Shown: positions 23,300-46,755 of the stretch, piece after piece | Layout of the letters: every line of letters begins with the position of its first letter | Numbering within the stretch: position 1 is the first letter of the stretch | From: the human T2T-CHM13v2.0 reference genome, Homo sapiens | Reading direction: 5' to 3' (one strand) | Assembly: GCF_009914755.1 (NCBI RefSeq) | Contig: NC_060933.1 | Length of the DNA stretch: 64,000 bases | The notes under the pieces: generated by a model | What the model was told of the DNA's origin: nothing | What the model saw: only the letters and a program-made list of their open reading frames with translations | The model's database searches: none | Program-made: the position numbers and the translations under genes

Positions 23300-34085
<10,786 letters not shown>

Positions 34086-34701
34086 GGCCCGCGGCTGCCC
34101 GTGCCCCCTCTGACAGCCATCCTCCTGGGAGCCCAGGAAGGCATCCACGAGGGAGCTCCTGGCCAGCAGCCGTCATCCTCTCGGACCAGCCAGCTGGTCC
34201 TCTGGGAACAGCCAGCTCCCGAGCACAGCCGCACTCCTGTTGACCCTGGATCCCACCCTTTGAGCCTGACCCCACTGCAGCCTCTGCCCAGCCAGCCCTG
34301 CGCTCCCCCACCCTGACAGTGAGCTGTGTCCTCGTCCCCCCACCCCCTTCCCAGTCAAGGTGGTGGCCTGGGCCGCTCCACCTCACCGGTGCAGTGACCC
34401 AGGACGGCATCAGCAGCCCAGTGAGCACCAGGGGTGGCATAGGGCACCCATGAGGCTGCGCTGCACTCCTCTGCCCTGGGGCCACCTCGGCTGCTGCAGC
34501 CTGCCCAGCAGCACATTCCAGTCACTGCCCCCGCACTCCCACAGGGCTCAGGCTGGGCTCAGAGGCCACTGAGATGCCAGCTCCTTGAGAGCAGTGGGGG
34601 TGTCCCAGGCCAGAGCAGCCTCTTCCTCTCCTGGTCCCAGAAAAACCCTTGCAGTAAATGGTGGCCTCTGGGTGGTTACTTCTAGCGCAGGCTTCCTTCC
34701 T

Positions 34702-34854
34702 TCCTCTAGCTCCTCCCGGTGCCCTGGGTGCTGGGTGCTGGATGGATGGGCGTCCTCTAGCTCCTCCCGGTGCCCTGGGTGCTGGGTGCTGGATGGGTGG
34801 GCGTCCTCTAGCTCCTCCCGGTGCCCTGGGTGCTGGGTGCTGGATGGGTGGGCG
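34702..34854. repeat. 3 x 51-bp tandem repeat in the NDOR1 3' UTR
   Basis: TCCTCTAGCTCCTCCCGGTGCCCTGGGTGCTGGGTGCTGGATGG(A/G)TGGGCG starting at 34702, 34753 and 34804. Confidence 0.95.
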
Positions 34855-35665
34855 CCACGGTGCACCCTTGTTGGGCTGCCTGTGCCCGAGTGGCCTCTGC
34901 AGCTCTTATGTCTGCCTCTAATGGGATGTGCGCCCTGACTGCCTCGTTCTTAAGGGCATAGTGGGTCGGCTAAGATCTGATCGCCAGGACTGCGTTCTGG
35001 GCAGGTGCTGGGAAGGCGGAACCAAGCCGTCCGTGCCGCTAGGGAGCCGAGACTGCCGGAAAGAGGAGCGGCAGGAGGGGGCGTGGTTGTGCAGCCCCAC
35101 CCCCGGGAGGGGCTTTAGGCACTGGGAAGGAAAGTCCTGTTGGAGGAGTTCGGTGGCTGTTCACACCCGCCTCGCTGTCTTGGAGTCTTGATCTGTCGTC
35201 GGCGGGTCGCTGGCACAGGACTAAACATGGCTGAGGCTGGGCTCCAGCCAGATCTGGCTGGGGACAGCACCGCGTGGGCCCAGGATCCACCCAGAGCAGG
35301 CAGGCCTTGCTGGGGCCCCAGTCAAGTCCACTTCCAGTGAGGAGAGCCAGCCGGGAGGTCAGTGCCAGAGCTCTGGTGGAGCCCAGACCCTGCCTTCCCT
35401 GAGGGCCGCCCCTGTCGCCGCCCTGGGGTCCCTGTCCTCCTATCCTGACTCCTGCCCCAGGGCCACCACCCCTGAACTGTGCCCTGGGGCCCCCACCCTC
35501 CACCTGGCCGACTCCAGCTCTGGGCCTGTCAGTCCACCTGGGTCCTCTCTGGGCCCTGAGTGCCTGGACCCTCTGTGCCAAGCACCAGCAAGCAAAGGGG
35601 ATGACCTTGGGCACCCCCAAGGTGCTGAGACTACAGCCAGTGAGCCCCTGCTGGGGGCCAAAGCC

Positions 35666-36271
35666 ATGGAGGGTGCCTGGGCCCTTCCAACCTGGAAGGA
35701 GGAGGGGAGAGAGCAGGCAGCAGGGCAGGGGGAAGAGGAGGAGTGCCCGATCTGCACAGAGCCCTACGGGCCCAGAGAGCGCCGCCTGGCCCTGCTGAAC
35801 TGTAGCCACGGCCTGTGTGTGGGCTGCCTGCACAGGCTGCTGGGCTCGGCCTCCAGTGCCGACCTGGGCCGGGTGCGCTGCCCGCTGTGCCGCCAGAAGA
35901 CGCCCGTGCTGGAGTGGGAGATCTGCCGGCTACAGGAGGAGCTGCTACAGGCCGACGGGCCCTCACGCCAGCCCCGCCGAGAGGCCCCTGCATCCTATCA
36001 CCGCAACCCTGGGCCCTGGGGCTCCCTGGAGCACCGCTACCAGCTGCGCTTCCTGGCAGGGCCCGTGGGCGGCCGGGGCTGCCTGCCCTTCCTGCCCTGT
36101 CCACCCTGCCTGGGTGCCCGGCTCTGGACCCTGCGGGAGCGGGGACCCTGTGCCCGCCGCCTGGCGCTGCTGAGCCTGCTGGCCCTTGAGCTTCTGGGGC
36201 TGCTGCTGGTCTTCACGCCGCTCCTGCTGCTGGGACTGCTCTTCGTGCTCCTGGACCGCTCTGGCCGCTGA
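35666..36271 (+). CDS. Unnamed RING-HC (C3HC4) finger protein with C-terminal transmembrane segment, RNF152/RNF183/RNF186-like, at least 201 aa
   Basis: Strong Kozak GCCATGG; C-x2-C-x15-C-x-H-x2-C-x2-C-x17-C-x2-C (aa 27-75); 31-aa Leu-rich tail (aa 166-196); intronless; shares AATAAA 37011 with NDOR1. Confidence 0.85.
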   Translation: MEGAWALPTWKEEGREQAAGQGEEEECPICTEPYGPRERRLALLNCSHGLCVGCLHRLLGSASSADLGRVRCPLCRQKTPVLEWEICRLQEELLQADGPSRQPRREAPASYHRNPGPWGSLEHRYQLRFLAGPVGGRGCLPFLPCPPCLGARLWTLRERGPCARRLALLSLLALELLGLLLVFTPLLLLGLLFVLLDRSGR

Positions 36272-37010
36272 GCAGAGCCCAGGACAGCCCCGCCGCCAAC
36301 AGGCCAGGGGGCCCAGACTGGCCCACGTCCCCATGCCTGGGTGCTGTGAGGCCTGATGACCAGGCTGGAAAAACCCAAGGTTGGGTCCAGGGCAGTGGCC
36401 TTCAATCAAGACCTCCCATTGCTGAACCCACAACCAGGGCTACCCAGAGGCCTGACCCTGCCAGAGTCCATGGCTGCACTGCTGCCCAGACACTAGCTGA
36501 ACCCAAGGACACCAGCGCCCAAGGACAGCTCCTGGAGGAGGCCAGCCCAGCAGGAAAGTCTGTGAGCAGGACCCCATTCACCCTGCGGCAGACGGGCACC
36601 GTACTGGCCACGGGCTGACGCCGGCCACACTTCCCCTCCGAGGGCCAGCTGAGCACAGCAGGCATGAAAGCAAACAGAGATACAGCAGTGAGTCAGTTCC
36701 TTGGAGAGGGCAGGGACTCCGCCCACCCTGTGTTCAGATAAGGGCCAGTGTGTGTCCCTGAAGGTCAGGCCAGCCGGGGGAGGGGTCCATGCTGCGAAAA
36801 TTCAGCCTGCAAAGGCTCCTCTCCCCACTTGATCAGGCCCAGACCAGGTGGGGGTTGGCGCTGGCCTGTGTTGCAGGGGACAAGGGCCCACCCAGGCCTT
36901 GGAACATAAGCTCTGCCCCTGCACACCCTCATGTCACCACACCTGGGATGGAGACATCAGGTGGCCCAGCGAGAGATGGAGGACTGATCCTGGAACGTGA
37001 AGCAGCTTTC

Positions 37011-37390
<380 letters not shown>

Positions 37391-38095
37391 TGGGGCGGGC
37401 TCTTCCTCCCACCCAAGTGGTCCAGGTGCCAGACAGGAGGCGCTGGGTCCTTATTCCCCTACCACCATTTCAGCCAGTCTTTGTCCCTAACTCCTGCACA
37501 TGCCCAAAGGCTACTCCCACACAACCCTGGAAGACCCAGGTGGGTGCTCAGGTCCAGATGGGCACCAGGAGGGAAATCAACCGAGTTGTCCCCCACACAG
37601 GCACCCCCACACCATTGAAAATGTCCTCTCTGCCCAGCTGGGGTGTCTCTGCACACCCACCAGGTAGTCCTGCCAGGCGCACACAAGCAGCCCACTCTGT
37701 ACGTGTGGGGGTTTGCACCGACACAGCCCACCCGGCCCTCCTGAGCTGCATGCACAGCCCAGCCTGGCCCCCAGTGCGCAGGGCAGGCCCAACCCGAGCA
37801 GCGCTGGGCCTCTCTCTGGCAGCTCCAAGCTGGGCCCTCTCTGGGTTGCAGCCCTGGGTGCCCACCCTAGGCCCAGGCCTGAGCACAGCCCACAGGAGCA
37901 AGCTTCAGTCCAGGAACAGGTGCAAACTTTGGCAAAGAGTTTTAATGGCAAAGTTGGCTGCAGCGACAATGCCACTCGGGGTGGGGCCGGAAGCCATGGT
38001 GGGGAAGGAAGGGTCAGCGGGCGGCAGGGCAGGGCCGGGTCCCTGAAGAAGCAGCGAGCGAGGCTCAGCGGGCAGTGGCGGGCAGGCAGGCGCTA

Positions 38096-38881
38096 CTACA
38101 TGATGGAGCAGGCGGACAGTGGGTTCCGCACGTGGCAGGTGCACGCGGCCCCACAGTACTGCCGGAAGGTCTGGTAGCAGCTGCCCTCGGGCTCAGCCCC
38201 CCACTGACCCCCGGATGGGGCCGTCAGCGCCTCAGGCGGCAGGCGGCTCAGGATGGACGTGTTGACAGCCAGCGCGGCCAGGCCGTAGTCGGTGAAGAGC
38301 ACAGTCTCACGGCGGCAGGTGGGGCAGGAGATGAACTTGTACTTGGGGCAGGACTCGTAGAGAATCTGCAGGCACTGCTCACACACAGAGTGCAGGCAGG
38401 ACAGCACGCGGGGCCTCCGCTGGGTGACATTGTAGGAGTGCCCACAGGTGGGGCACTCCAGGGGCTCGCCTGCCGCCGCCGAAGAAGCCGCCGAGGCCGA
38501 GGGGCCAGGCCGAATCACGTACTGATTCACAATGACCTCATCCTCTGGGGCCACGCGGGGAAAGCCCAGCTCCGAGCTTCCCTTACGGGGCCGCCGTGGC
38601 AGTGGCGGGGTATGGGGTGCCCCTTCCAAGGCAGGCATGTCCCCCCCACAGGCCTGGTTGACAATGATCTCTGTGTCTGAGGGCCAGGCACGCTTGGGTG
38701 CCAGAGTTGGGGTGGGCCGGGGAGCAGGCGGGAAGCAGGGGGCAGCCGGTAGCTCAGGGAACTTTTCAGGGTGGACAATCTTCATGGCCTCCATCTTGAG
38801 GATGACATGGGGACCCTTCAGGCAGGACATGAGGAGGCCCGGCCAGCCACTGCCCGCCTCGGGCCCGGGGTCAGAGGGCAT
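38096..38881 (-). CDS. RNF208: RING finger protein 208, 261 aa, single coding exon
   Basis: MPSDPGPEAGSGWPGLLMSCLKG...; RING CPTC-x15-CLHSVCEQC-x15-CPTC; ends CSIM. Non-coding exon 1 donor at 39657, acceptor at 39408; ATTAAA at 37941-37946 (-). Confidence 0.95.
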   Translation of the reverse strand: MPSDPGPEAGSGWPGLLMSCLKGPHVILKMEAMKIVHPEKFPELPAAPCFPPAPRPTPTLAPKRAWPSDTEIIVNQACGGDMPALEGAPHTPPLPRRPRKGSSELGFPRVAPEDEVIVNQYVIRPGPSASAASSAAAGEPLECPTCGHSYNVTQRRPRVLSCLHSVCEQCLQILYESCPKYKFISCPTCRRETVLFTDYGLAALAVNTSILSRLPPEALTAPSGGQWGAEPEGSCYQTFRQYCGAACTCHVRNPLSACSIM

Positions 38882-39599
38882 CCGGCTGTCTCCAGTCAGA
38901 CTGGATGTTCGGGTGGGTGGGGGCGTTGTGTGGGGCTGGGGGGCAGGTGACAGGGCAGCATCCTGGTCCCGCCAGGCCTGGGGGGGGCCCCGGACGGCCC
39001 GTGGACTCCTAGGGACAGCCGGCGAGAGTTGGGGGTGCAGGGCCCCCCCCAGTGGCCACAGTGGCTTCTCTGGTCCAGTCCTGGGAGGAGGAGGAAGGGG
39101 TGGGGGAGGGGGAGGCAGGCGGGGGCAGGGAGGGGTGGGAGGCTGCCCTGGGCTGGGGGTCTGGCCCAGGGTCTCACCCAGGGTCTCTGGCTGCTGAGGC
39201 TGGCGAGGGGGCGCGGGGGGGGCTCCCCCTGCAGCCGAGGTCAGCAGGCCGCGGGCCGGGACATCGGGGCAGGCAGGGGCTGGGTGGGCCCCATGGCTCC
39301 AGGACAGGGCGCCCAGGGAAGGCAGCTAGCCGAAGCGCTGGCTGCAGGAGGACCGGGGCGGCAGGCTCCGCGGCAGGAGCAGAGGCGAGGCCTGGGCCAG
39401 GCCTGAGCTGCAGGTGAGAGACGGCATGAGGGCAGTGCCCCGGCCACCCCCACCCTAGCCCTCGCCCTGCACAAAGGACCGGGCGCCCGACCTCTGACCC
39501 TGACCTCAGCCGTGGGATCCCGACCTCCGCGGGCCTCAGAACCCAACCCCCTCCCCGGTCCCCGCCTCCAAGGCCAGACGCACCTTCCCGAGGGCCGAC

Positions 39600-40120
39600 C
39601 CCCGTCGCGTGGGGAGGGGCGCTGAGTCCGCCCCCGGCCCCCGCCCCCTGCGCTCACCTGCCCCAGCCTGGCGTCCCGGCCGCGCGCCGCCGCCGCAGAG
39701 GTTGTCTCAAAGGCAGGCCCGGACGCGGCGCCCGCGCCTCGGCCCGGCAGCTCGGGGGGCTCCGGCGGCTCCGGCGGCGGCCGCAGCGACCTCAGGCGAT
39801 GGCGGGGCCCGGGCGGCACCGAGGGGCGCGGGCGCGGGCGTGGGGCGCGGGGCGCGGGTTTCGGCACGGCGGCGACGGCGGCAGGTGCGTGCGGAGCGTG
39901 GCGCGCTCTGCGGCGGAGGCGCGGGGACCGCAGTGCGCGCGGCGCCCGCCCGCGCCCGCAGCGCCACCCCCCGTCTGGGGACCCGCGCGGGGTCCGCGGG
40001 GCGGGGCCAGCCTCCCGGCCGCCCCTCGGTCCGCTCCCGGCGTCGCTCTCGCCCGCGGACTGCGTGGGGGGCAGGACCCCCGCGTCGCCCCCAGTTCTCT
40101 CCAGGCTGATCCTGGGTCCT
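39600..40120 (-). promoter_or_regulatory. RNF208 CpG island / non-coding first exon
   Basis: Very CpG-dense; 5' splice site CAG|GTGAGC on - at 39658/39657. Confidence 0.7.
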
Positions 40121-41825
40121 GGTCAAGCCCCCGCCCCCCCAGATTCAGGAGGAGAATCCGGCTGTTCTCCTCCCTCACAGTAGGAGGCCTCAGGACTCTG
40201 GAGTGAGAGGGAGGGGACCTGCGCGGAGGATCCCAGGGGAGCTGGTTCCAGGGCCCACCGGTGCCTTCCCCCGTCCCCGGCCCCCCGCCCCATGGGAAGG
40301 CCCCGAGTCCTCCAGCTCCGCCTGTGCCCGGTGCCGTAGCTCAGATAGATCGCTGTGACTCTAAGGGGCAAGAGCGGGGCGGGCGGAGCGGATCAGAAGG
40401 CCGAGGCCGGTGGACGGACGGGTCCGGTGGGAGTGCGCGAAGGACAGGCTGGCAGCCCAGTGCGGGGTGGAGGCGGCCCTGAGGACCGCACCTGCCCGGA
40501 CAGGGTGGCCCCTGGCACTCCAGCGCGCAGGCCCGGGCCTCTCCGCTTCCTCACCCGGGGCTTCCCTGCCCTCCTGGGTCCGCCTTCTGCCTGTGGAGCC
40601 CTCGGGCTTGCTGGTCACCGTGAGGCAGGGGACCAGGGCTTCGAGGGCCTCCGCTGCCACGCTGTGACCAGCTCTGGCCCCGCACCTGGCCCTGGACATC
40701 CTGGCCTCCTTCAGCTCCTCTCTCCGCTGGACTGGCCAGACCGCACCTGCTCTAGGCAGAGCCCCAGGGCCTGCAGAGTGCTGAGCCCAGAGGGGACGGT
40801 GCCGCTGGTGCGGGAGCTCGCGTGGGCAAAACAGGCTGGAGGAGCAGCCCTGCGCATAGGGTCTGGCTTGGCCCCTCTGTGGGGCCTCGGGCGAGTGTCA
40901 CTCAGAAGAGCAATAGGGAGAGGTGTGCGGGTGACAGGGGCGCTGCTGGAGGGGTCCTTACGGGGCCCTGGCAAGATGGTGGGGCAACTGAGGCAGCCTG
41001 GGCCTGGGGAGGGCCGGGAGCCCAGCTCCGCCGCAGACTCTGCTCACCGACCCGGCGTGCGCCCGAGGAAGCACCAGGCCGCAGGCCCCGCCCCCTCAGC
41101 GAGACCCCACCCCGTAGGGGATGAGATCCCGCCCCCGCCACGAGGCCCCGCCCCCCAGGCCAGGCCTTTTCAGACCCGCCATTCAGAGCTGGAGAACCCC
41201 AAGCCGAGTATTGGTCACATCCGAACCGGGTCTTTCGGGAAACCCCGGAGCGCGTGGGCTTCTGGGCAATAATATTTCCACGGCCGGTTCCTGCCTTGTT
41301 TGCGCATGCGCCATAGGCGCCACTCAAGTGGCAGGCAGGGAGGTGGGCGGGACTTCCGGCGCCTGCGCAGTGGACTTCCGTCGCCGGCCTCTCAAGTTTT
41401 GGGTCCCCAGGAGCACCCAGTTCTCCCCAAATCGGGGCCGGGTTGCCTGAACTCATGTCCCGACCGGTCTGACTGGCCCTACACAGGCCACGTCTGACTG
41501 GACCCCGCCCTTCCTGGTGCTCCCCTGGGCCCCAAGGGCCCCACTGCCGTGGGTCGTCCCCGCGGCACTCGCCAGTGCCCGCTGCACCCCTGCCTGCGCC
41601 GGTGCAGATGGAGCCTGGGTTCGGCTGGAGGCGGGGGGCCCAAGGTGGGGACGCTGGGGGGGCGCGTGTGGCCCCCACGCCCGCCAGCCAGAGGGTAACT
41701 GCAGTTTGAGAAATGAGCTAAAAATGTCAGTAGTGTCTAAAGCCCGTGTCACTGATTGTAAGATAAGACCTGTGACAAAACGTGCAAATCAAACATTTTT
41801 TATCAGTGAAAAAAGCAGAAAAGCC

Positions 41826-42540
<715 letters not shown>

Positions 42541-43290
42541 TCACCCCACTTCCTTTCCAGAGCCGTGACCTCAGGCTCACCTCCTGCCCTCCTCTCAGGC
42601 AAGCTGCAGATGCCCTTTAGGGCCCAGGCCATGCCCCGGATGTGAGGGGCTGAGTCACTGGTTTGGCAGTGCCCCTCAGAGCCCAGGCCTGGGCTGCCAC
42701 CCACCTGAGGACGAGGGCTGGGCCAGCTGTCGTGCTCCAGTTGCTGGGGCCTCTTGGGATCTTGGGAACCCCATCTCTGAGCCCCGCCCCATGGCCCCGC
42801 CCCTCCCAAGGAGGGAAAAGGCGGCTGCCAGTCGCTCAACTCAGGCACTGGGACCTAGAGCTCAGAAGACCGAGAGGACAGACTGCCGTGTTGCCACCAC
42901 AGGTAAGCCCTTGGCCGCCGGGACTGCCCTGAACTCAGGGGCACTGCAGGGTCAGCCCCCTTCTCTCCCATCTCTCAGCCTCCCCGACCCCATTCCCAGC
43001 TCCATCCCAGGACCAATGCCACCAGGGGAGGGGGAGGATCCCTGGCAGGGGTGGCAGCTGGGAGACACCGGCCCTTGCTGCTTGCTCACACTTGGCTCAC
43101 GCCCATGACACTAGCCTTGCACACACATTTGGAGGTGATGGCACCCCGGCACTGATGCCTTGGGGATGCTGAGCTTGGACGAGGCACGCTGCTCCTGGTG
43201 GGGGCTTTCCTGGGCCGCAGGCTCGTGGGCAGCCATCCCACTCCACTGAGTTCATGTCTGTCTTCTCTGCCCACCCCTGCAGGCTGGACC

Positions 43291-43725
43291 ATGGACCCCC
43301 AAGAGATGGTCGTCAAGAACCCATATGCCCACATCAGCATCCCCCGGGCTCACCTGCGGCCTGACCTGGGGCAGCAGTTAGAGGTGGCTTCCACCTGTTC
43401 CTCATCCTCGGAGATGCAGCCCCTGCCAGTGGGGCCCTGTGCCCCAGAGCCAACCCACCTCTTGCAGCCGACCGAGGTCCCAGGGCCCAAGGGCGCCAAG
43501 GGTAACCAGGGGGCTGCCCCCATCCAGAACCAGCAGGCCTGGCAGCAGCCTGGCAACCCCTACAGCAGCAGTCAGCGCCAGGCCGGACTGACCTACGCTG
43601 GCCCTCCGCCCGTGGGGCGCGGGGATGACATCGCCCACCACTGCTGCTGCTGCCCCTGCTGCCACTGCTGCCACTGCCCCCCCTTCTGCCGCTGCCACAG
43701 CTGCTGCTGCTGTGTCATCTCCTAG
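43291..43725 (+). CDS. CYSRT1: Cysteine-rich tail protein 1, 144 aa
   Basis: ACCATGG Kozak; [26 protein letters not shown]...[29 protein letters not shown]; upstream intron 42903-43282; AATAAA 43955-43960; AP-1 site TGAGTCA 42651-42657. Confidence 0.94.
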
Positions 43726-45550
43726 CCCAGCCCACCCTGCCAGGGCCAGGACCCAGACTTCAGCAAATGTGGCTCACACAGTGCCGGGACATGCCGGGAC
43801 ATGCGGGGTGGCTGTTGTCATGGGCGTCTGCCCCTTCACACCAGGCACTGGGGCTCAGACCCACCAGGAAGGTGGCCGTTCAGCCCGAGCTCCTGAAACG
43901 GAATCCCAGGTCCTGGCTGGAGAGGGACACCCCTGATTACCTTAAGGCCCAGGCAATAAAGCAGGGTGATCTTCCTCCCAGCAATTCTTCTTTGCTGCAG
44001 GCTCCTTTGGGAGGGGGTTGTAGCTGGACACAGGGCATCTGCCCCTTTATGTGGACCCGAGAACACACACACACAGTCACTGTGGACACTGCAAGGACAG
44101 GGATGCCACTGCCTCATGACGTCCACACTTTCCCCTGGCCTGCAAGTCCCGGGTCTGCCCAGAGACTGCACGAGGGCTTGCAGCGTGTCCACAGCCCTAG
44201 CTGAGCCAGGTCTGGATTTGAGCTGACCTGCGCTCCCTGGGGCCGAGACTGAGACTGTGAGCTGGGGTCAGTCCATGGGTCGGACAGCAGGAGGATACAG
44301 CGCATGGAACTGGGGGGACCCCAGGAAAGGCCTCCAAGAGAAGGAGCGTGTCGACAAGAGGGTGGTGGGTGCAGCAGGTGCTGCAGGTTTCAGGGAGTGG
44401 AAGGTTGGGACAGGAGAGCCCAGACAGCCAGGACCACGCCCTGCCCACTGGTGATTCACCTCCCAACCTCAGCTGGGATGTTTTTCTAGTTTCCCAGGAA
44501 ATATCTAATTCCTGCACACCTCCTGTCCTGCCTCGGGGCCTGGGCTTCCGGGAGGAGGTGGCCTGGACCAGGCCTTGAGGATGAGGCAGGAGGAGGCTGG
44601 GGCCGTGGGTGCTGGGCCGTCTCCTGGTCTGCTGAGCAGGGTGGGGGCCTCTCTGGGGCTGAGCACCAGGCGCTAGGCTGCTCTGCGCAGGTACTGCCTC
44701 ACCACTGTAAGCCAGGATGCCAGGCAGGGAGTGAGCATTGAGGCCAGCTTGGGGCGCCCTGGTGTTCCGGGCAGGGCAGAGACAAGGCGAGGAGGTGGCA
44801 GCCGAGCTGGCCACGCAGGACAGACGGGTCCTCACGCCATGCCAGCCCTTCCCTGACGCATGGTGACCAGCTCCACAGCAGGGCAGGGCAGGCGCGTGGC
44901 ATGCAGAGGTCTCCAGGCGTGGGACAGATGGGTCACTGCCCTGACCCTGTGCCAGGACTTAGCGTGCCAGGCTCCCCGCCTTGCCCCGTTGCTGGCCCCC
45001 ACCAGAGGGTGACCACACCCAGGCCAGCCACGAGAACTTGTCTGACCAGTCCTGGGGGCAGACTGCCAAGAAGGTGGGCAGGGGTGAGGAGGGGCCATTT
45101 GCTTCCACCCAGCGGGGCTGTGAGTGGTTCTGGGGTCCTGCCCACCTGTCCCAACCCTTCTTGGTCCCTCAACTCTGCTCTGCCTGCAGTCTGGTGTGGA
45201 CACACTGATCATACCTCCCGGAACCTGGGCCTCCCAGGGTGGCCTGGAGGCTGCAGACGGGCAGAGCAGCCAGGAGCTGCCCACCAAGGAGGCGTCTGGC
45301 ACTGTCTGGGGTCCCGAGCTGGGAGCGGGGATCCCCAGACACGGAGCTGGTGCGCCACCTGGAGTCCATGTGGACTGGTGCAGCCCTCTGCCGTCCAGCC
45401 GGCATCAAGGTGAGGCTGAGAAGCCACACAGATCCACAGACAAGCACAGTGGCAAAGTCTGCAGAAGGCTCTGAGCCAGGAGGGAACCCTGGCAGGCTTC
45501 CTAGAGGAGGAGATGTGAGCAGAGACCAAGGCAGGAAAACATTCCAGTAT

Positions 45551-45650
45551 GGAGGGGAGGTTAAGGGAAGGAGAGGGTAAGAGTGAGGGAGCGGAGGGAA
45601 GGGGAGGGGAGGGGGAGGGGGAGGGTGGGGGAGGGGAGAGGTGAGGGAGG
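45551..45650. repeat. G-rich polypurine low-complexity tract
   Basis: GGAGGGAAGGGGAGGGGAGGGGGAGGGGGAGGGTGGGG... Confidence 0.8.
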
Positions 45651-46004
45651 TTTTGAGTGTGGCGAAGGGTGTGAGCGTGCGGAGAAGCCCTAAGAGTGGG
45701 GGAATGGACCCCAAGGCCAGCCTGGATAAGGTGTTAGCAGAAGCTGGCTGGGTCTGGACAGGAGGGGGTGGGCAGGGGGCGGGGGGCACCTTATCTCTTG
45801 CAAGTGGGTGGTGCCGTTAGATCTAGTTTCAAGGCTTTGTGGCTGAAACGGGAGCCCACGCCCGCCACAGCTGGCCACCTGCCTCTCTCCTGACTCCCGT
45901 GCAAGGCCAGTAATGCAACCCAGGAGGGAGCCGCAGGGCGCCCTGGGTCCCCCACTCCCTTCTCCGGCCACCCCGTGGCTGTGCATAGCTGCCCAGCAGA
46001 GCCC

Positions 46005-46755
<751 letters not shown>

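What the first reader, a model, noticed from the sequence alone, without database searches (positions are those of the whole stretch)
35666..36271. Hidden tail-anchored RING-HC E3-ligase-like gene inside the NDOR1 3' UTR
Seen: an intact intronless 201-aa ORF with optimal Kozak. It has all eight RING ligands (CPIC...CSHGLCVGC...CPLC, 35744-35890) followed by the typical R-x2-T, an acidic run before the RING, a CLPFLPCPPC segment and a 31-aa hydrophobic tail (36161-36253). It lies between the NDOR1 stop and the first AATAAA (37011). Established: N-terminal RING plus C-terminal TM is the layout of the RNF152/RNF182/RNF183/RNF186 endomembrane E3 ligases. I know no gene symbol or functional study; recent annotation builds may carry an unnamed model here, which I cannot verify. 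Inference: an uncharacterised lysosome/ER E3 ligase, expressed from its own internal TSS or from bicistronic NDOR1 mRNA, with reads misassigned to NDOR1.
Basis: partly seen in the sequence, partly recalled or inferred. Interest (0 to 1): 0.9.

Follow-up and report, generated by a model that had tools for sequence, protein, structure and literature searches.

The report
Annotated, unstudied membrane RING ligase gene
A real, vertebrate-conserved gene for a small membrane-anchored RING-type ubiquitin-ligase-like protein sits inside the last exon of NDOR1; it is already in the gene catalogues as LOC122513141, but nobody has yet studied what it does.

Summary
Window 35666-36271 (+) is an intact 201-codon ORF with a C3HC4 RING (C27-C75; Pfam zf-RING_5 1.6e-8, above the curated cut-off) and a 31-residue hydrophobic C-terminal tail followed by only five residues.

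ORF length alone is not beyond chance here: 116 of 300 shuffles reach 201 aa. The coding case rests on other evidence:
- the RING match;
- GC3 of 0.85;
- 100 homologues from fish to human;
- all eight zinc ligands invariant in 92 of 92 aligned sequences;
- no human deviation at 66 of 66 highly conserved columns.

It is not hidden. RefSeq carries it as LOC122513141 (NM_001395982.1). A 2026 E3 census lists it (UniProt A0A2R8Y4M4) as a high-confidence but unassessed and unscreened RING. A 2024 preprint calls it an unknown ER-membrane protein.

It shares only RING-level similarity (30-39%) with the ORFs I take to be RNF183 and RNF182, and with its neighbours RNF208 and RNF224. It is a separate lineage with the same layout.

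Beyond the annotation: 80 of 92 orthologue models carry a longer N-terminus with a conserved EPLL motif. In human that stretch is open and in frame but has no ATG, and two upstream ATGs precede the annotated start.

Verdict: already-known gene model of unknown function, most likely a tail-anchored E3 ligase.

The parts
34086..37030 (+). NDOR1 3' UTR (last exon 33941-37030), which contains the whole LOC122513141 transcript
   Evidence: Hub annotation. The only canonical AATAAA downstream of the NDOR1 stop is at 37011.
35163..37030 (+). Single-exon transcript NM_001395982.1 of LOC122513141 ('ring finger protein-like'), 3'-coterminal with NDOR1 mRNA
   Evidence: Hub annotation. I could not test the TSS.
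35227..35340 (+). Upstream ORF 1: ATG in a strong context (ctaaacATGg), 37 codons, in a different frame from the CDS
35405..35665 (+). Open, ATG-less stretch in frame with the CDS. It is homologous to the N-terminal extension of placental orthologue models (AAPVAALGSL..YPDSCPRA...SEPLLGA). The best non-AUG start candidate is CTG 35423 (gccgccCTGg).
35642..35653 (+). EPLL motif, encoded upstream of the annotated human start. It occurs upstream of the RING in 62 of 92 aligned homologues, and as [EQS]PLL in more distant fish-like members.
35601..35798 (+). Upstream ORF 2: ATG (aaggggATGa), 65 codons, out of frame, overlapping the annotated start codon
35666..36271 (+). Annotated CDS, 201 aa plus stop (P0001)
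   Evidence: GC1/2/3 = 0.76/0.54/0.85
35744..35890 (+). RING-HC (C3HC4) domain, C27 to C75, followed by invariant R76-Q77
   Evidence: Pfam; PDB sequence match to the TRIM32 RING; ligands invariant in 92 of 92; model and Foldseek
35912..35956 (+). Helix 83-97 (EWEICRLQEELLQAD), the most conserved segment (mean top-residue frequency 0.90 for residues 81-97)
36014..36055 (+). Helix 117-130 holding the invariant L121-E122 and near-invariant H123-R124 (LEHR)
36080..36109 (+). Cys/Pro-rich juxtamembrane segment CLPFLPCPPC (C139 near-invariant). C162, just before the membrane segment, is also near-invariant.
36161..36253 (+). Hydrophobic tail anchor L166-L196 with invariant E175 and P185 inside it
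   Evidence: (helix 161-200; block pLDDT means of about 86-95 across residues 161-200)
36254..36271 (+). Five-residue C-terminal stub DRSGR, then the TGA stop
37011..37016 (+). AATAAA poly(A) signal shared by NDOR1 and LOC122513141

Best explanation
Window 35666-36271 is the coding sequence of a genuine single-exon gene, conserved across vertebrates (RefSeq LOC122513141, UniProt A0A2R8Y4M4). It is nested in the last exon of NDOR1.

Shown here:
- It encodes a small protein with a cytosol-facing C3HC4 RING near the N-terminus.
- Three conserved helical or Cys-rich modules follow the RING.
- A single very hydrophobic C-terminal segment comes last, with at most five residues after it.

Inferred:
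- It is a tail-anchored protein, inserted post-translationally into the ER membrane and possibly sorted onward.
- Its RING recruits a ubiquitin-charged E2. The features that active RINGs use are conserved: an Ile or Val between the first two cysteines in 16 of 16 sequences, Pro in CPLC, and Arg immediately after the last cysteine.
- The conserved middle modules and the membrane segment, with its invariant Glu and Pro, select membrane-proximal or intramembrane substrates or partners.

In human the ancestral, longer N-terminus has no ATG. The annotated protein therefore starts at a lineage-specific Met just before the RING.
For: RING:
- Pfam zf-RING_5 1.6e-8, zf-RING_2 2.4e-8 and zf-C3HC4 5.3e-5, all above their curated cut-offs.
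- Best solved relative is the TRIM32 RING, E 9.7e-9.
- Foldseek best hits: 2ct2, E 7.7e-4; 5fey_B, rmsd 1.4 A over 54 columns.

Conservation:
- 100 homologues at E <= 1e-3: placentals 68-92% identical, opossum 69%, birds about 51%, turtles 52-53%, and a characid fish.
- A profile search finds 50 cluster representatives at E <= 1e-30, most of which match through the C-terminal segment.
- A falcon orthologue's best human match is this locus (2.2e-42); the next is 8.7e-5.
- All eight ligands plus P28, R76, Q77, W84, L121, E122, E175 and P185 are invariant in 92 of 92 sequences.
- Human deviates at 0 of 66 columns that are >=90% conserved in the other 91 sequences.
- GC3 of 0.85 against GC2 of 0.54.

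Tail anchor:
- The only hydrophobic windows start at residues 162-182, with a KD peak of 2.77.
- Five or fewer residues follow the segment in the 16 orthologues aligned.
- The AlphaFold2 model has helix 161-200 with block pLDDT means of about 86-95.

Literature:
- The E3-ome census supplement lists it as RING, category 1, unassessed, not screened (passages of the supplement; category definition).
- A preprint calls it an unknown ER-membrane protein with a predicted PLPP6 interaction (passage).
Against: - Nothing here shows that the human protein is made, is in a membrane or transfers ubiquitin.
- ORF length alone is not significant (116 of 300 shuffles).
- The annotated start Met is Met in only 6 of 92 aligned sequences, human included. 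80 of 92 models start at least 20 residues further upstream.
- Two upstream ATGs lie in the annotated leader, one in a strong context and one overlapping the start. Both should depress translation from 35666.
- The model is only moderate overall: mean pLDDT 71.4, pTM 0.43.
- The hydrophobic stretch is long (31 residues) and holds a Glu and a Pro, so a hairpin or an unusual topology is not excluded.
- Orthologue sequences are mostly automatic gene models, which are built to keep frames open.
Confidence: 0.75

Rival explanations
1. The protein is real and membrane-anchored, but its RING is not a stand-alone catalyst. It acts as an adaptor or regulatory subunit, for example of a membrane enzyme such as PLPP6, or as the inactive half of a RING heterodimer.
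For: - The only published functional hint is a predicted interaction with PLPP6, not ubiquitination.
- The most conserved parts include non-RING modules: helix 81-97 at 0.90, residues 115-131 at 0.81, and the TM at 0.80 with invariant E175 and P185.
- The E3 census marks activity as 'Unassessed'.
Against: - All eight ligands are invariant in 92 of 92 sequences.
- The positions that active RINGs use for E2~Ub are conserved: Ile or Val between the first two cysteines in 16 of 16 sequences, and P73 and R76 right after the last Cys in 92 of 92. The role of these positions is recalled from RNF4/BIRC7/c-Cbl work and was not tested here.
- The closest solved RING, TRIM32, is from an active ligase.
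Confidence: 0.13
2. The gene is functional in most vertebrates, but the human copy is translationally silent or nearly so. The ancestral start was lost, the ORF sits behind two upstream ATGs and inside the NDOR1 3' UTR, and the human 201-aa model is an annotation of a decaying or repurposed locus.
For: - There is no in-frame ATG in the 147 open codons upstream.
- The human Met1 column is Met in 6 of 92 sequences.
- uATG 35227 has A at -3 and G at +4; uATG 35601 overlaps the start out of frame.
- The upstream in-frame stretch shows no codon-position GC periodicity: 0.68/0.67/0.69.
- My literature searches found no paper reporting the protein experimentally.
Against: - The core ORF is intact, with 0 of 66 deviations at highly conserved columns. 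A silenced copy would be expected to accumulate some, although a recent loss would leave little trace.
- RefSeq curates it as an NM_ protein-coding record (hub annotation).
- The start context is strong.
- Other species' models also begin at this Met.
Confidence: 0.09
3. It is a chance ORF or processed pseudogene in GC-rich 3' UTR sequence.
For: ORFs of this length are common by chance in this composition (116 of 300 shuffles).
Against: - Pfam RING above the cut-offs.
- Full-length conservation down to fish.
- Invariant ligands.
- No closer parent copy anywhere in the human assembly: the next best locus has E 1.8e-5 and matches the RING only.
Confidence: 0.01

Closest known systems
RNF183 family of membrane E3 ligases (RNF183, RNF186, RNF182, RNF152; Okamoto, Imaizumi & Kaneko 2020, PMC7313026; abstract and passages read)
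   Same: - Same layout: C3HC4 RING near the N-terminus and a C-terminal transmembrane segment in a small protein.
- The RING is 38% identical over 63 aa (E 8e-11) to the 192-aa ORF at chr9:125.50 Mb. It is 30% identical over 79 aa (E 1e-11) to the 247-aa ORF at chr6:13.85 Mb.
- I take these two ORFs to be RNF183 and RNF182 from length and recalled map position.
- The Atlas's nearest clusters are auto-named RNF183-like (0.96) and rnf152-like (0.93).
   Different: - There is no similarity outside the RING, and no RNF152_C match.
- Seven other human loci match the RNF183-like ORF better than this locus does (4.8e-5).
- The C-terminal modules (EWEICRLQEE helix, LEHR helix, GCLP..PPCL, TM with Glu and Pro) have no paralogue in the human assembly at E <= 1e-3.
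- The review counts four members and does not mention this gene.
RNF208 and RNF224, the neighbouring genes in this window (38096-38881 minus strand; 46291-46755 plus strand)
   Same: - Same RING subtype: C-x2-C-x15-C-x-H-x2-C-x2-C, then C-P-x-C-R-[QR]-x-T.
- 38% identity (E 4e-9) to RNF208 and 30% (E 3e-6) to RNF224.
- All three coding sequences lie within about 11 kb, which suggests an old local duplication.
   Different: - The last RING loop is x17 here and x15 in both neighbours.
- No alignment outside the RING region reached significance.
- I did not run hydropathy on RNF208 or RNF224, so whether they have membrane segments was not tested.
TRIM32 RING domain (PDB 2ct2, 5fey)
   Same: Closest solved structure by sequence (E 9.7e-9) and by fold (5fey_B, 44% identity, rmsd 1.4 A over 54 columns).
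   Different: No Pfam match to any non-RING domain such as a B-box or NHL repeats. The architecture is otherwise unrelated.
RNF227 and RNF228, other recently annotated small RING genes (HGNC 2026 paper PMC12807706 and E3-ome paper PMC13061254; passages read)
   Same: - Late additions to the human gene set that were counted as new RING E3s.
- RNF228 is a single-exon gene annotated from PhyloCSF and Ribo-seq without a publication.
   Different: - RNF228 lies in 2q36, not 9q34, and has a different GeneID (122319436).
- RNF227 and RNF228 received symbols, and RNF227 was assayed for activity.
- LOC122513141 has no approved symbol in any source I saw and no assay.

Membership tests
RING-HC (C3HC4) zinc finger (Pfam zf-RING_5 / zf-RING_2 / zf-C3HC4) | Eight zinc ligands in the order C-C-C-H-C-C-C-C with canonical spacing | tested here: met
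   C27, C30, C46, H48, C51, C54, C72, C75 with spacing 2/15/1/2/2/17/2. Invariant in 92 of 92 homologues.
RING-HC (C3HC4) zinc finger (Pfam zf-RING_5 / zf-RING_2 / zf-C3HC4) | Profile score above the curated gathering cut-off | tested here: met
   zf-RING_5 34.8 bits against 27.9; zf-RING_2 34.6 against 27.3; zf-C3HC4 23.4 against 21. zf-C3HC4_3 falls just below (26.2 against 27).
RING-HC (C3HC4) zinc finger (Pfam zf-RING_5 / zf-RING_2 / zf-C3HC4) | Cross-brace RING fold | tested here: met
   This is a predicted model only. Block pLDDT means are about 65-84 across residues 21-90. The best Foldseek hits are all RING domains, led by TRIM32.
Active RING E3 ubiquitin ligase | Binds an E2~Ub and stimulates ubiquitin transfer | not testable with these tools
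   Only indirect evidence. An Ile or Val between the first two cysteines is kept in 16 of 16 sequences. P73 and R76 after the last Cys are invariant in 92 of 92. The role of these positions is recalled from the literature, not taken from a call.
RNF183 family (RNF183/186/182/152, as defined in PMC7313026) | C3HC4 RING at the N-terminus plus one or two C-terminal transmembrane segments | tested here: met
   RING at 27-75; single hydrophobic segment at 166-196 of 201. Family definition from the passage.
RNF183 family (RNF183/186/182/152, as defined in PMC7313026) | Close sequence kinship ('high homology') with the four members | tested here: inconclusive
   - Similarity is RING-only: E 8e-11 to the RNF183-like ORF and 1e-11 to the RNF182-like ORF.
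- That is of the same order as those two ORFs to each other (2e-13, also RING-only).
- But the RNF183-like ORF finds seven other human loci ahead of this one.
- RNF186 and RNF152 were not compared directly.
RNF183 family (RNF183/186/182/152, as defined in PMC7313026) | Lysosomal localisation and tissue-restricted expression | not testable with these tools
   No expression or localisation data are available here. The one preprint passage says ER membrane, without showing data in the passage read.
RNF152 subfamily | RNF152_C domain (PF19325) | tested here: not met
   Not among the Pfam matches at E <= 1.
Tail-anchored membrane proteins | A single hydrophobic segment at the extreme C-terminus with a very short stub after it, and no N-terminal signal or other membrane segment | tested here: met
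   KD-19 windows above 1.6 start only at residues 162-182. The stub is DRSGR (5 aa) in human and 0-5 aa in the 16 aligned orthologues.
Tail-anchored membrane proteins | Post-translational insertion (GET/TRC40 or EMC route) | not testable with these tools
   Inference from the layout only.
TRIM family | RING followed by B-box and coiled coil | tested here: not met
   Pfam reports only RING-type models and a sub-threshold FYVE match (E 0.27); no B-box model appears. The similarity to TRIM32 is confined to the RING.

The most novel reading that the evidence does not exclude
The annotated human 201-aa protein may not be the whole story.

- The vertebrate-conserved N-terminal region, with its EPLL motif, is still open and in frame in human (35405-35665) but has no ATG.
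- Human cells may therefore make an N-terminally extended proteoform from a non-AUG codon. The best candidate is CUG at 35423, in the near-ideal context gccgccCUGg, which would add 81 residues.
- Alternatively or in addition, use of the annotated AUG may be gated by an ATF4-like pair of upstream ORFs. These are a 37-codon uORF with a strong start at 35227 and a 65-codon uORF from 35601 that overlaps the start out of frame.
- That would make this membrane RING ligase a stress-regulated translation product hidden within what is counted as NDOR1 3' UTR.
Probability: 0.15. Interest if true: 0.5.

Novelty: already known. Interest (0 to 1): 0.3.

Why it matters
The gene model is already public, so the discovery claim falls. 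What remains open:

- It is one of the few human RING proteins with deep vertebrate conservation and no functional data at all. The 2026 E3 census marks it unassessed and absent from every screen it collates.
- Because it shares its exon and poly(A) site with NDOR1, short-read expression counts, 3'-end single-cell data, eQTLs and 3'-UTR variant interpretation at NDOR1 can be confounded by it.
- The start-codon turnover, the conserved EPLL motif that the human model lacks, and the invariant Glu and Pro inside the membrane segment give concrete handles for a first functional study.

Tried and rejected
- Homodimer test: complex prediction on two copies of residues 20-100 gave 'no answer' (score 0.00, controls not run, my alignment not used). 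This is no evidence either way.
I used the single-protein searches it offers instead.
- Recalled clone-based names (AL807752.4 to .7) as possible aliases: 3 papers, all gene lists for lncRNA or expression signatures. None could be tied to this locus, so the lead was dropped.
- RNF228 as a possible approved symbol: rejected. RNF228 lies within a 2q36 deletion interval and has GeneID 122319436.
- Literature for translation evidence: 'NDOR1' + 'PhyloCSF' gave 1 unrelated paper. 'NDOR1/RNF208/novel protein/Ribo-seq', requiring at least 3 of 4 terms, gave 0. 'A0A2R8Y4M4' gave 0. These searches cover main texts only, not most supplements.
- Rfam over 33900-38000: no family at gathering score.
- A human-specific frameshift in the upstream region: I first suspected one from two primate models. 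Ungapped tblastn showed instead that upstream of about 35400 different species' models use different frames. The in-frame homology from 35405 on is shared by placental models from many different groups.
- dN/dS and synteny in other mammals: not possible, because no vertebrate genomic DNA other than this assembly is reachable with the tools.
- ORF length as evidence for coding: rejected (116 of 300 shuffles).
Full report
**1. The observation**

Window 35666-36271 (+) translates without interruption to 201 residues and a TGA stop.
- The start context is aaagccATGg.
- The eight RING ligands are C27, C30, C46, H48, C51, C54, C72 and C75 (35744-35890). Their spacing is C-x2-C-x15-C-x-H-x2-C-x2-C-x17-C-x2-C, followed by RQKT.
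- The only AATAAA between the NDOR1 stop and 37100 is at 37011. The other hexamers found are weak variants, AGTAAA at 34653 and ACTAAA at 35220.

**2. Is it more than chance?**

Length alone is not. In dinucleotide-preserving shuffles of 34086-37030, the longest ATG ORF reached 201 aa or more in 116 of 300 shuffles (mean 196 aa). This is expected at 63-71% G+C. The coding case rests on other evidence.
- Pfam: zf-RING_5 (E 1.6e-8, 34.8 bits, cut-off 27.9), zf-RING_2 (2.4e-8) and zf-C3HC4 (5.3e-5, 23.4 against 21) all match residues 26-77.
- Solved structures: the closest sequence is the TRIM32 RING (2ct2, E 9.7e-9).
- Codon positions: G+C is 0.76/0.54/0.85 inside the ORF.
- Homologues: a search of 5.8 billion proteins gave 100 hits at E <= 1e-3. 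Many are named 'ring finger protein-like' in placentals (68-92% identity). Others come from opossum (69%), birds (about 51%), turtles (52-53%) and the fish Astyanax.
- Alignment of 92 sequences: all eight ligands are invariant, as are P28, E32, Y34, R76, Q77, P80, W84, L89-Q90-E91, L121-E122, E175 and P185.
- Constraint in human: the human sequence deviates at 0 of the 66 columns that are >=90% conserved in the other 91 sequences. The human core therefore shows no sign of relaxed constraint.
- Orthology: a falcon orthologue searched against the whole human assembly finds this locus at 2.2e-42 and the next at 8.7e-5, consistent with one-to-one orthology.
- Profile search: against 1.84 billion cluster representatives, 50 match at E <= 1e-30, most through the C-terminal segment. 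Weaker hits match only the RING.

**3. Anatomy of the protein**

The AlphaFold2 model was built on the 92-sequence alignment (mean pLDDT 71.4, pTM 0.43).
- Residues 1-22 are disordered.
- The RING spans about 26-80.
- Helices lie at 83-97, 117-130 and 147-159.
- One long helix runs from 161 to 200, with block pLDDT means of about 86-95.

Foldseek returns only RING domains. TRIM32 is best (5fey_B, 44% identity, rmsd 1.4 A over 54 columns).

Mean top-residue frequency by region is as follows:

| Region | Residues | Conservation |
|---|---|---|
| N-terminus | 1-22 | 0.33 |
| RING | 23-80 | 0.82 |
| Helix | 81-97 | 0.90 |
| Linker | 98-114 | 0.60 |
| Helix 2 | 115-131 | 0.81 |
| Cys/Pro-rich region | 132-160 | 0.78 |
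| Membrane segment | 161-196 | 0.80 |

Kyte-Doolittle 19-residue windows above 1.6 start only at residues 162-182, with a peak of 2.77. Five residues (DRSGR) follow the segment in human, and none to five in the 16 orthologues. This is the definition of a tail anchor, with the RING on the cytosolic side.

Two invariant non-hydrophobic residues, E175 and P185, lie inside the membrane segment. A near-invariant Cys (C162) lies just before it. I infer that the membrane segment does more than anchor: it may recognise a partner or substrate within the membrane, and C162 may be acylated. Nothing here tests that.

**4. Likely mechanism**

Shown: a conserved RING fold, a tail-anchor layout and purifying conservation at the protein level.

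Inferred:
- Post-translational insertion into the ER membrane.
- Recruitment of an E2~ubiquitin by the RING.
- Ubiquitination of membrane-proximal proteins chosen by the conserved middle modules and the membrane segment.

The positions that active RINGs use to hold E2~Ub are conserved. An Ile or Val sits between the first two cysteines in 16 of 16 sequences. The Pro of CPLC and an Arg directly after the last Cys are invariant in 92 of 92. The role of these positions is recalled from work on c-Cbl, RNF4 and BIRC7 and comes from no call.

**5. What the annotation does not say: the N-terminus**
- 80 of 92 orthologue models carry at least 20 residues upstream of the column of human Met1. Only 8 carry 0-5. 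That column is Met in 6 of 92 sequences, human included.
- The human frame is open for 147 codons upstream of the ATG. The last stop is TAA at 35222-35224, and there is no in-frame ATG.
- From about 35405 the upstream frame is homologous, in frame and without gaps, to the N-terminal extensions of placental models from many different groups. Examples are 63% identity over 67 aa and 63% over 95 aa.
- It ends in SEPLLGA. EPLL occurs upstream of the RING in 62 of 92 sequences. It occurs as [EQS]PLL in more distant, fish-like members.
- Upstream of about 35400, different species' models use different frames. This points to start-codon turnover or model noise there.

Evidence against translation of the human extension:
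- It shows no codon-position periodicity (0.68/0.67/0.69).
- The orthologue sequences are gene models, which are built to keep frames open.

Candidate in-frame non-AUG starts exist. The best context is CTG at 35423 (gccgccCTGg).

The annotated leader also holds two ATGs. One is at 35227 (A at -3, G at +4; 37 codons). The other is at 35601 (65 codons, out of frame, overlapping the start). Both should lower or condition use of the 35666 start. This arrangement resembles ATF4-type control, a comparison made from memory and untested.

**6. Relation to NDOR1**

The RefSeq transcript (35163-37030) lies wholly within NDOR1's last exon (33941-37030), according to the hub annotation. With one canonical poly(A) signal, full-length NDOR1 mRNA carries this ORF in its 3' UTR. 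I could not test whether the ORF is translated from NDOR1 mRNA or from its own transcript.

**7. Comparison with what is known**

The gene is not hidden.
- It is LOC122513141, 'ring finger protein-like', NM_001395982.1 (hub annotation).
- The supplement of the E3-ome census (Cell 2026, PMC13061254) lists 'LOC122513141, 122513141, RING, A0A2R8Y4M4'. It is marked category 1, activity 'Unassessed', and 'Not screened / Missing from screen' (passages). Category 1 is the high-confidence set of 672.
- The preprint 'Computing the Human Interactome' calls it 'an unknown protein', places it in the ER membrane and predicts an interaction with PLPP6 (passage).
- The name LOC122513141 occurs in the main text of that one paper only. 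A0A2R8Y4M4 occurs in none.
- RNF228, which I considered as a possible symbol, is a different gene in 2q36.

A review defines this 'RNF183 family' by an N-terminal C3HC4 RING, one or two C-terminal membrane segments, high mutual homology, tissue-specific expression and lysosomal localisation (PMC7313026; abstract and passages).
- The layout criteria are met.
- Sequence kinship is confined to the RING. It is 38% over 63 aa (E 8e-11) to a 192-aa ORF at chr9:125.50 Mb, and 30% over 79 aa (E 1e-11) to a 247-aa ORF at chr6:13.85 Mb. I take these to be RNF183 and RNF182 from length and recalled map position.
- Those two ORFs are themselves related only in the RING (36%, 2e-13).
- The RNF183-like ORF finds seven other human loci ahead of this one (4.8e-5). 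They include RNF208 and RNF224 in this window and loci on chr1, chr19, chr6, chr18 and chr17.
- Nothing else in the human assembly matches this protein outside its RING at E <= 1e-3.

I therefore read it as a separate, old lineage within a wider group of small RING proteins. It works like the RNF183 family, but membership is not established.

Its two neighbours share its RING subtype. RNF208 is 38% identical (4e-9) and RNF224 is 30% identical (3e-6), both with the same x15 first loop and the C-P-x-C-R-[QR]-x-T ending. Three such coding sequences within about 11 kb suggest an ancient local duplication.

**8. Verdict**

It is a real feature, correctly described and correctly interpreted in kind. 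As a gene model it is already known. Its function is unknown, and the most likely one is a tail-anchored membrane E3 ligase (0.75). The points worth carrying forward are the non-ancestral human start, the conserved EPLL motif that the human model lacks, the upstream ATGs, and the invariant Glu and Pro in the membrane segment.

Noticed in passing
window 34702-34854: A 51-bp unit repeated 3.0 times (99% matches) lies in the NDOR1 3' UTR, upstream of the LOC122513141 TSS. It produces the repetitive 87-aa ORF at 34658-34921. It may be a variable-number repeat.
   Followed up: no
window 35666-46755: Three RING genes of the same RING subtype lie within about 11 kb: LOC122513141 (+), RNF208 (-, 38096-38881) and RNF224 (+, 46291-46755). 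Pairwise RING identities are 30-38% and the first-loop length is identical, which looks like an ancient local cluster.
   Followed up: partly
window 35227-35340 and 35601-35798: Two upstream ATG ORFs lie in the annotated leader. The first has a strong context and the second overlaps the main start out of frame. The layout resembles ATF4-type translational control, a comparison made from memory.
   Followed up: partly
window 35444-35498: An imperfect 27-bp tandem duplication (2.0 copies, 79% matches) lies inside the in-frame upstream region, giving the repeated CP(R/G)A..T(P) peptide pattern.
   Followed up: no
G000:C2:222804901-222805023 (no locus id): The RNF183-like ORF also hits a 350-aa open frame on chr2 at about 222.8 Mb (E 4.5e-4). 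This may be the recently named RNF228 in 2q36. I did not check it.
   Followed up: no
P0147, P0151, P0158, P0163: A second, more divergent group of family members ends in ...LGCFLYMVVP... It probably represents fish paralogues. These sequences keep the RING, the WEI(R/K)xLQ(E/Q)E helix and an N-terminal xPLL motif, but lack the membrane Glu. This suggests an extra duplication in some lineages; the taxa are unknown because the library has no names.
   Followed up: no
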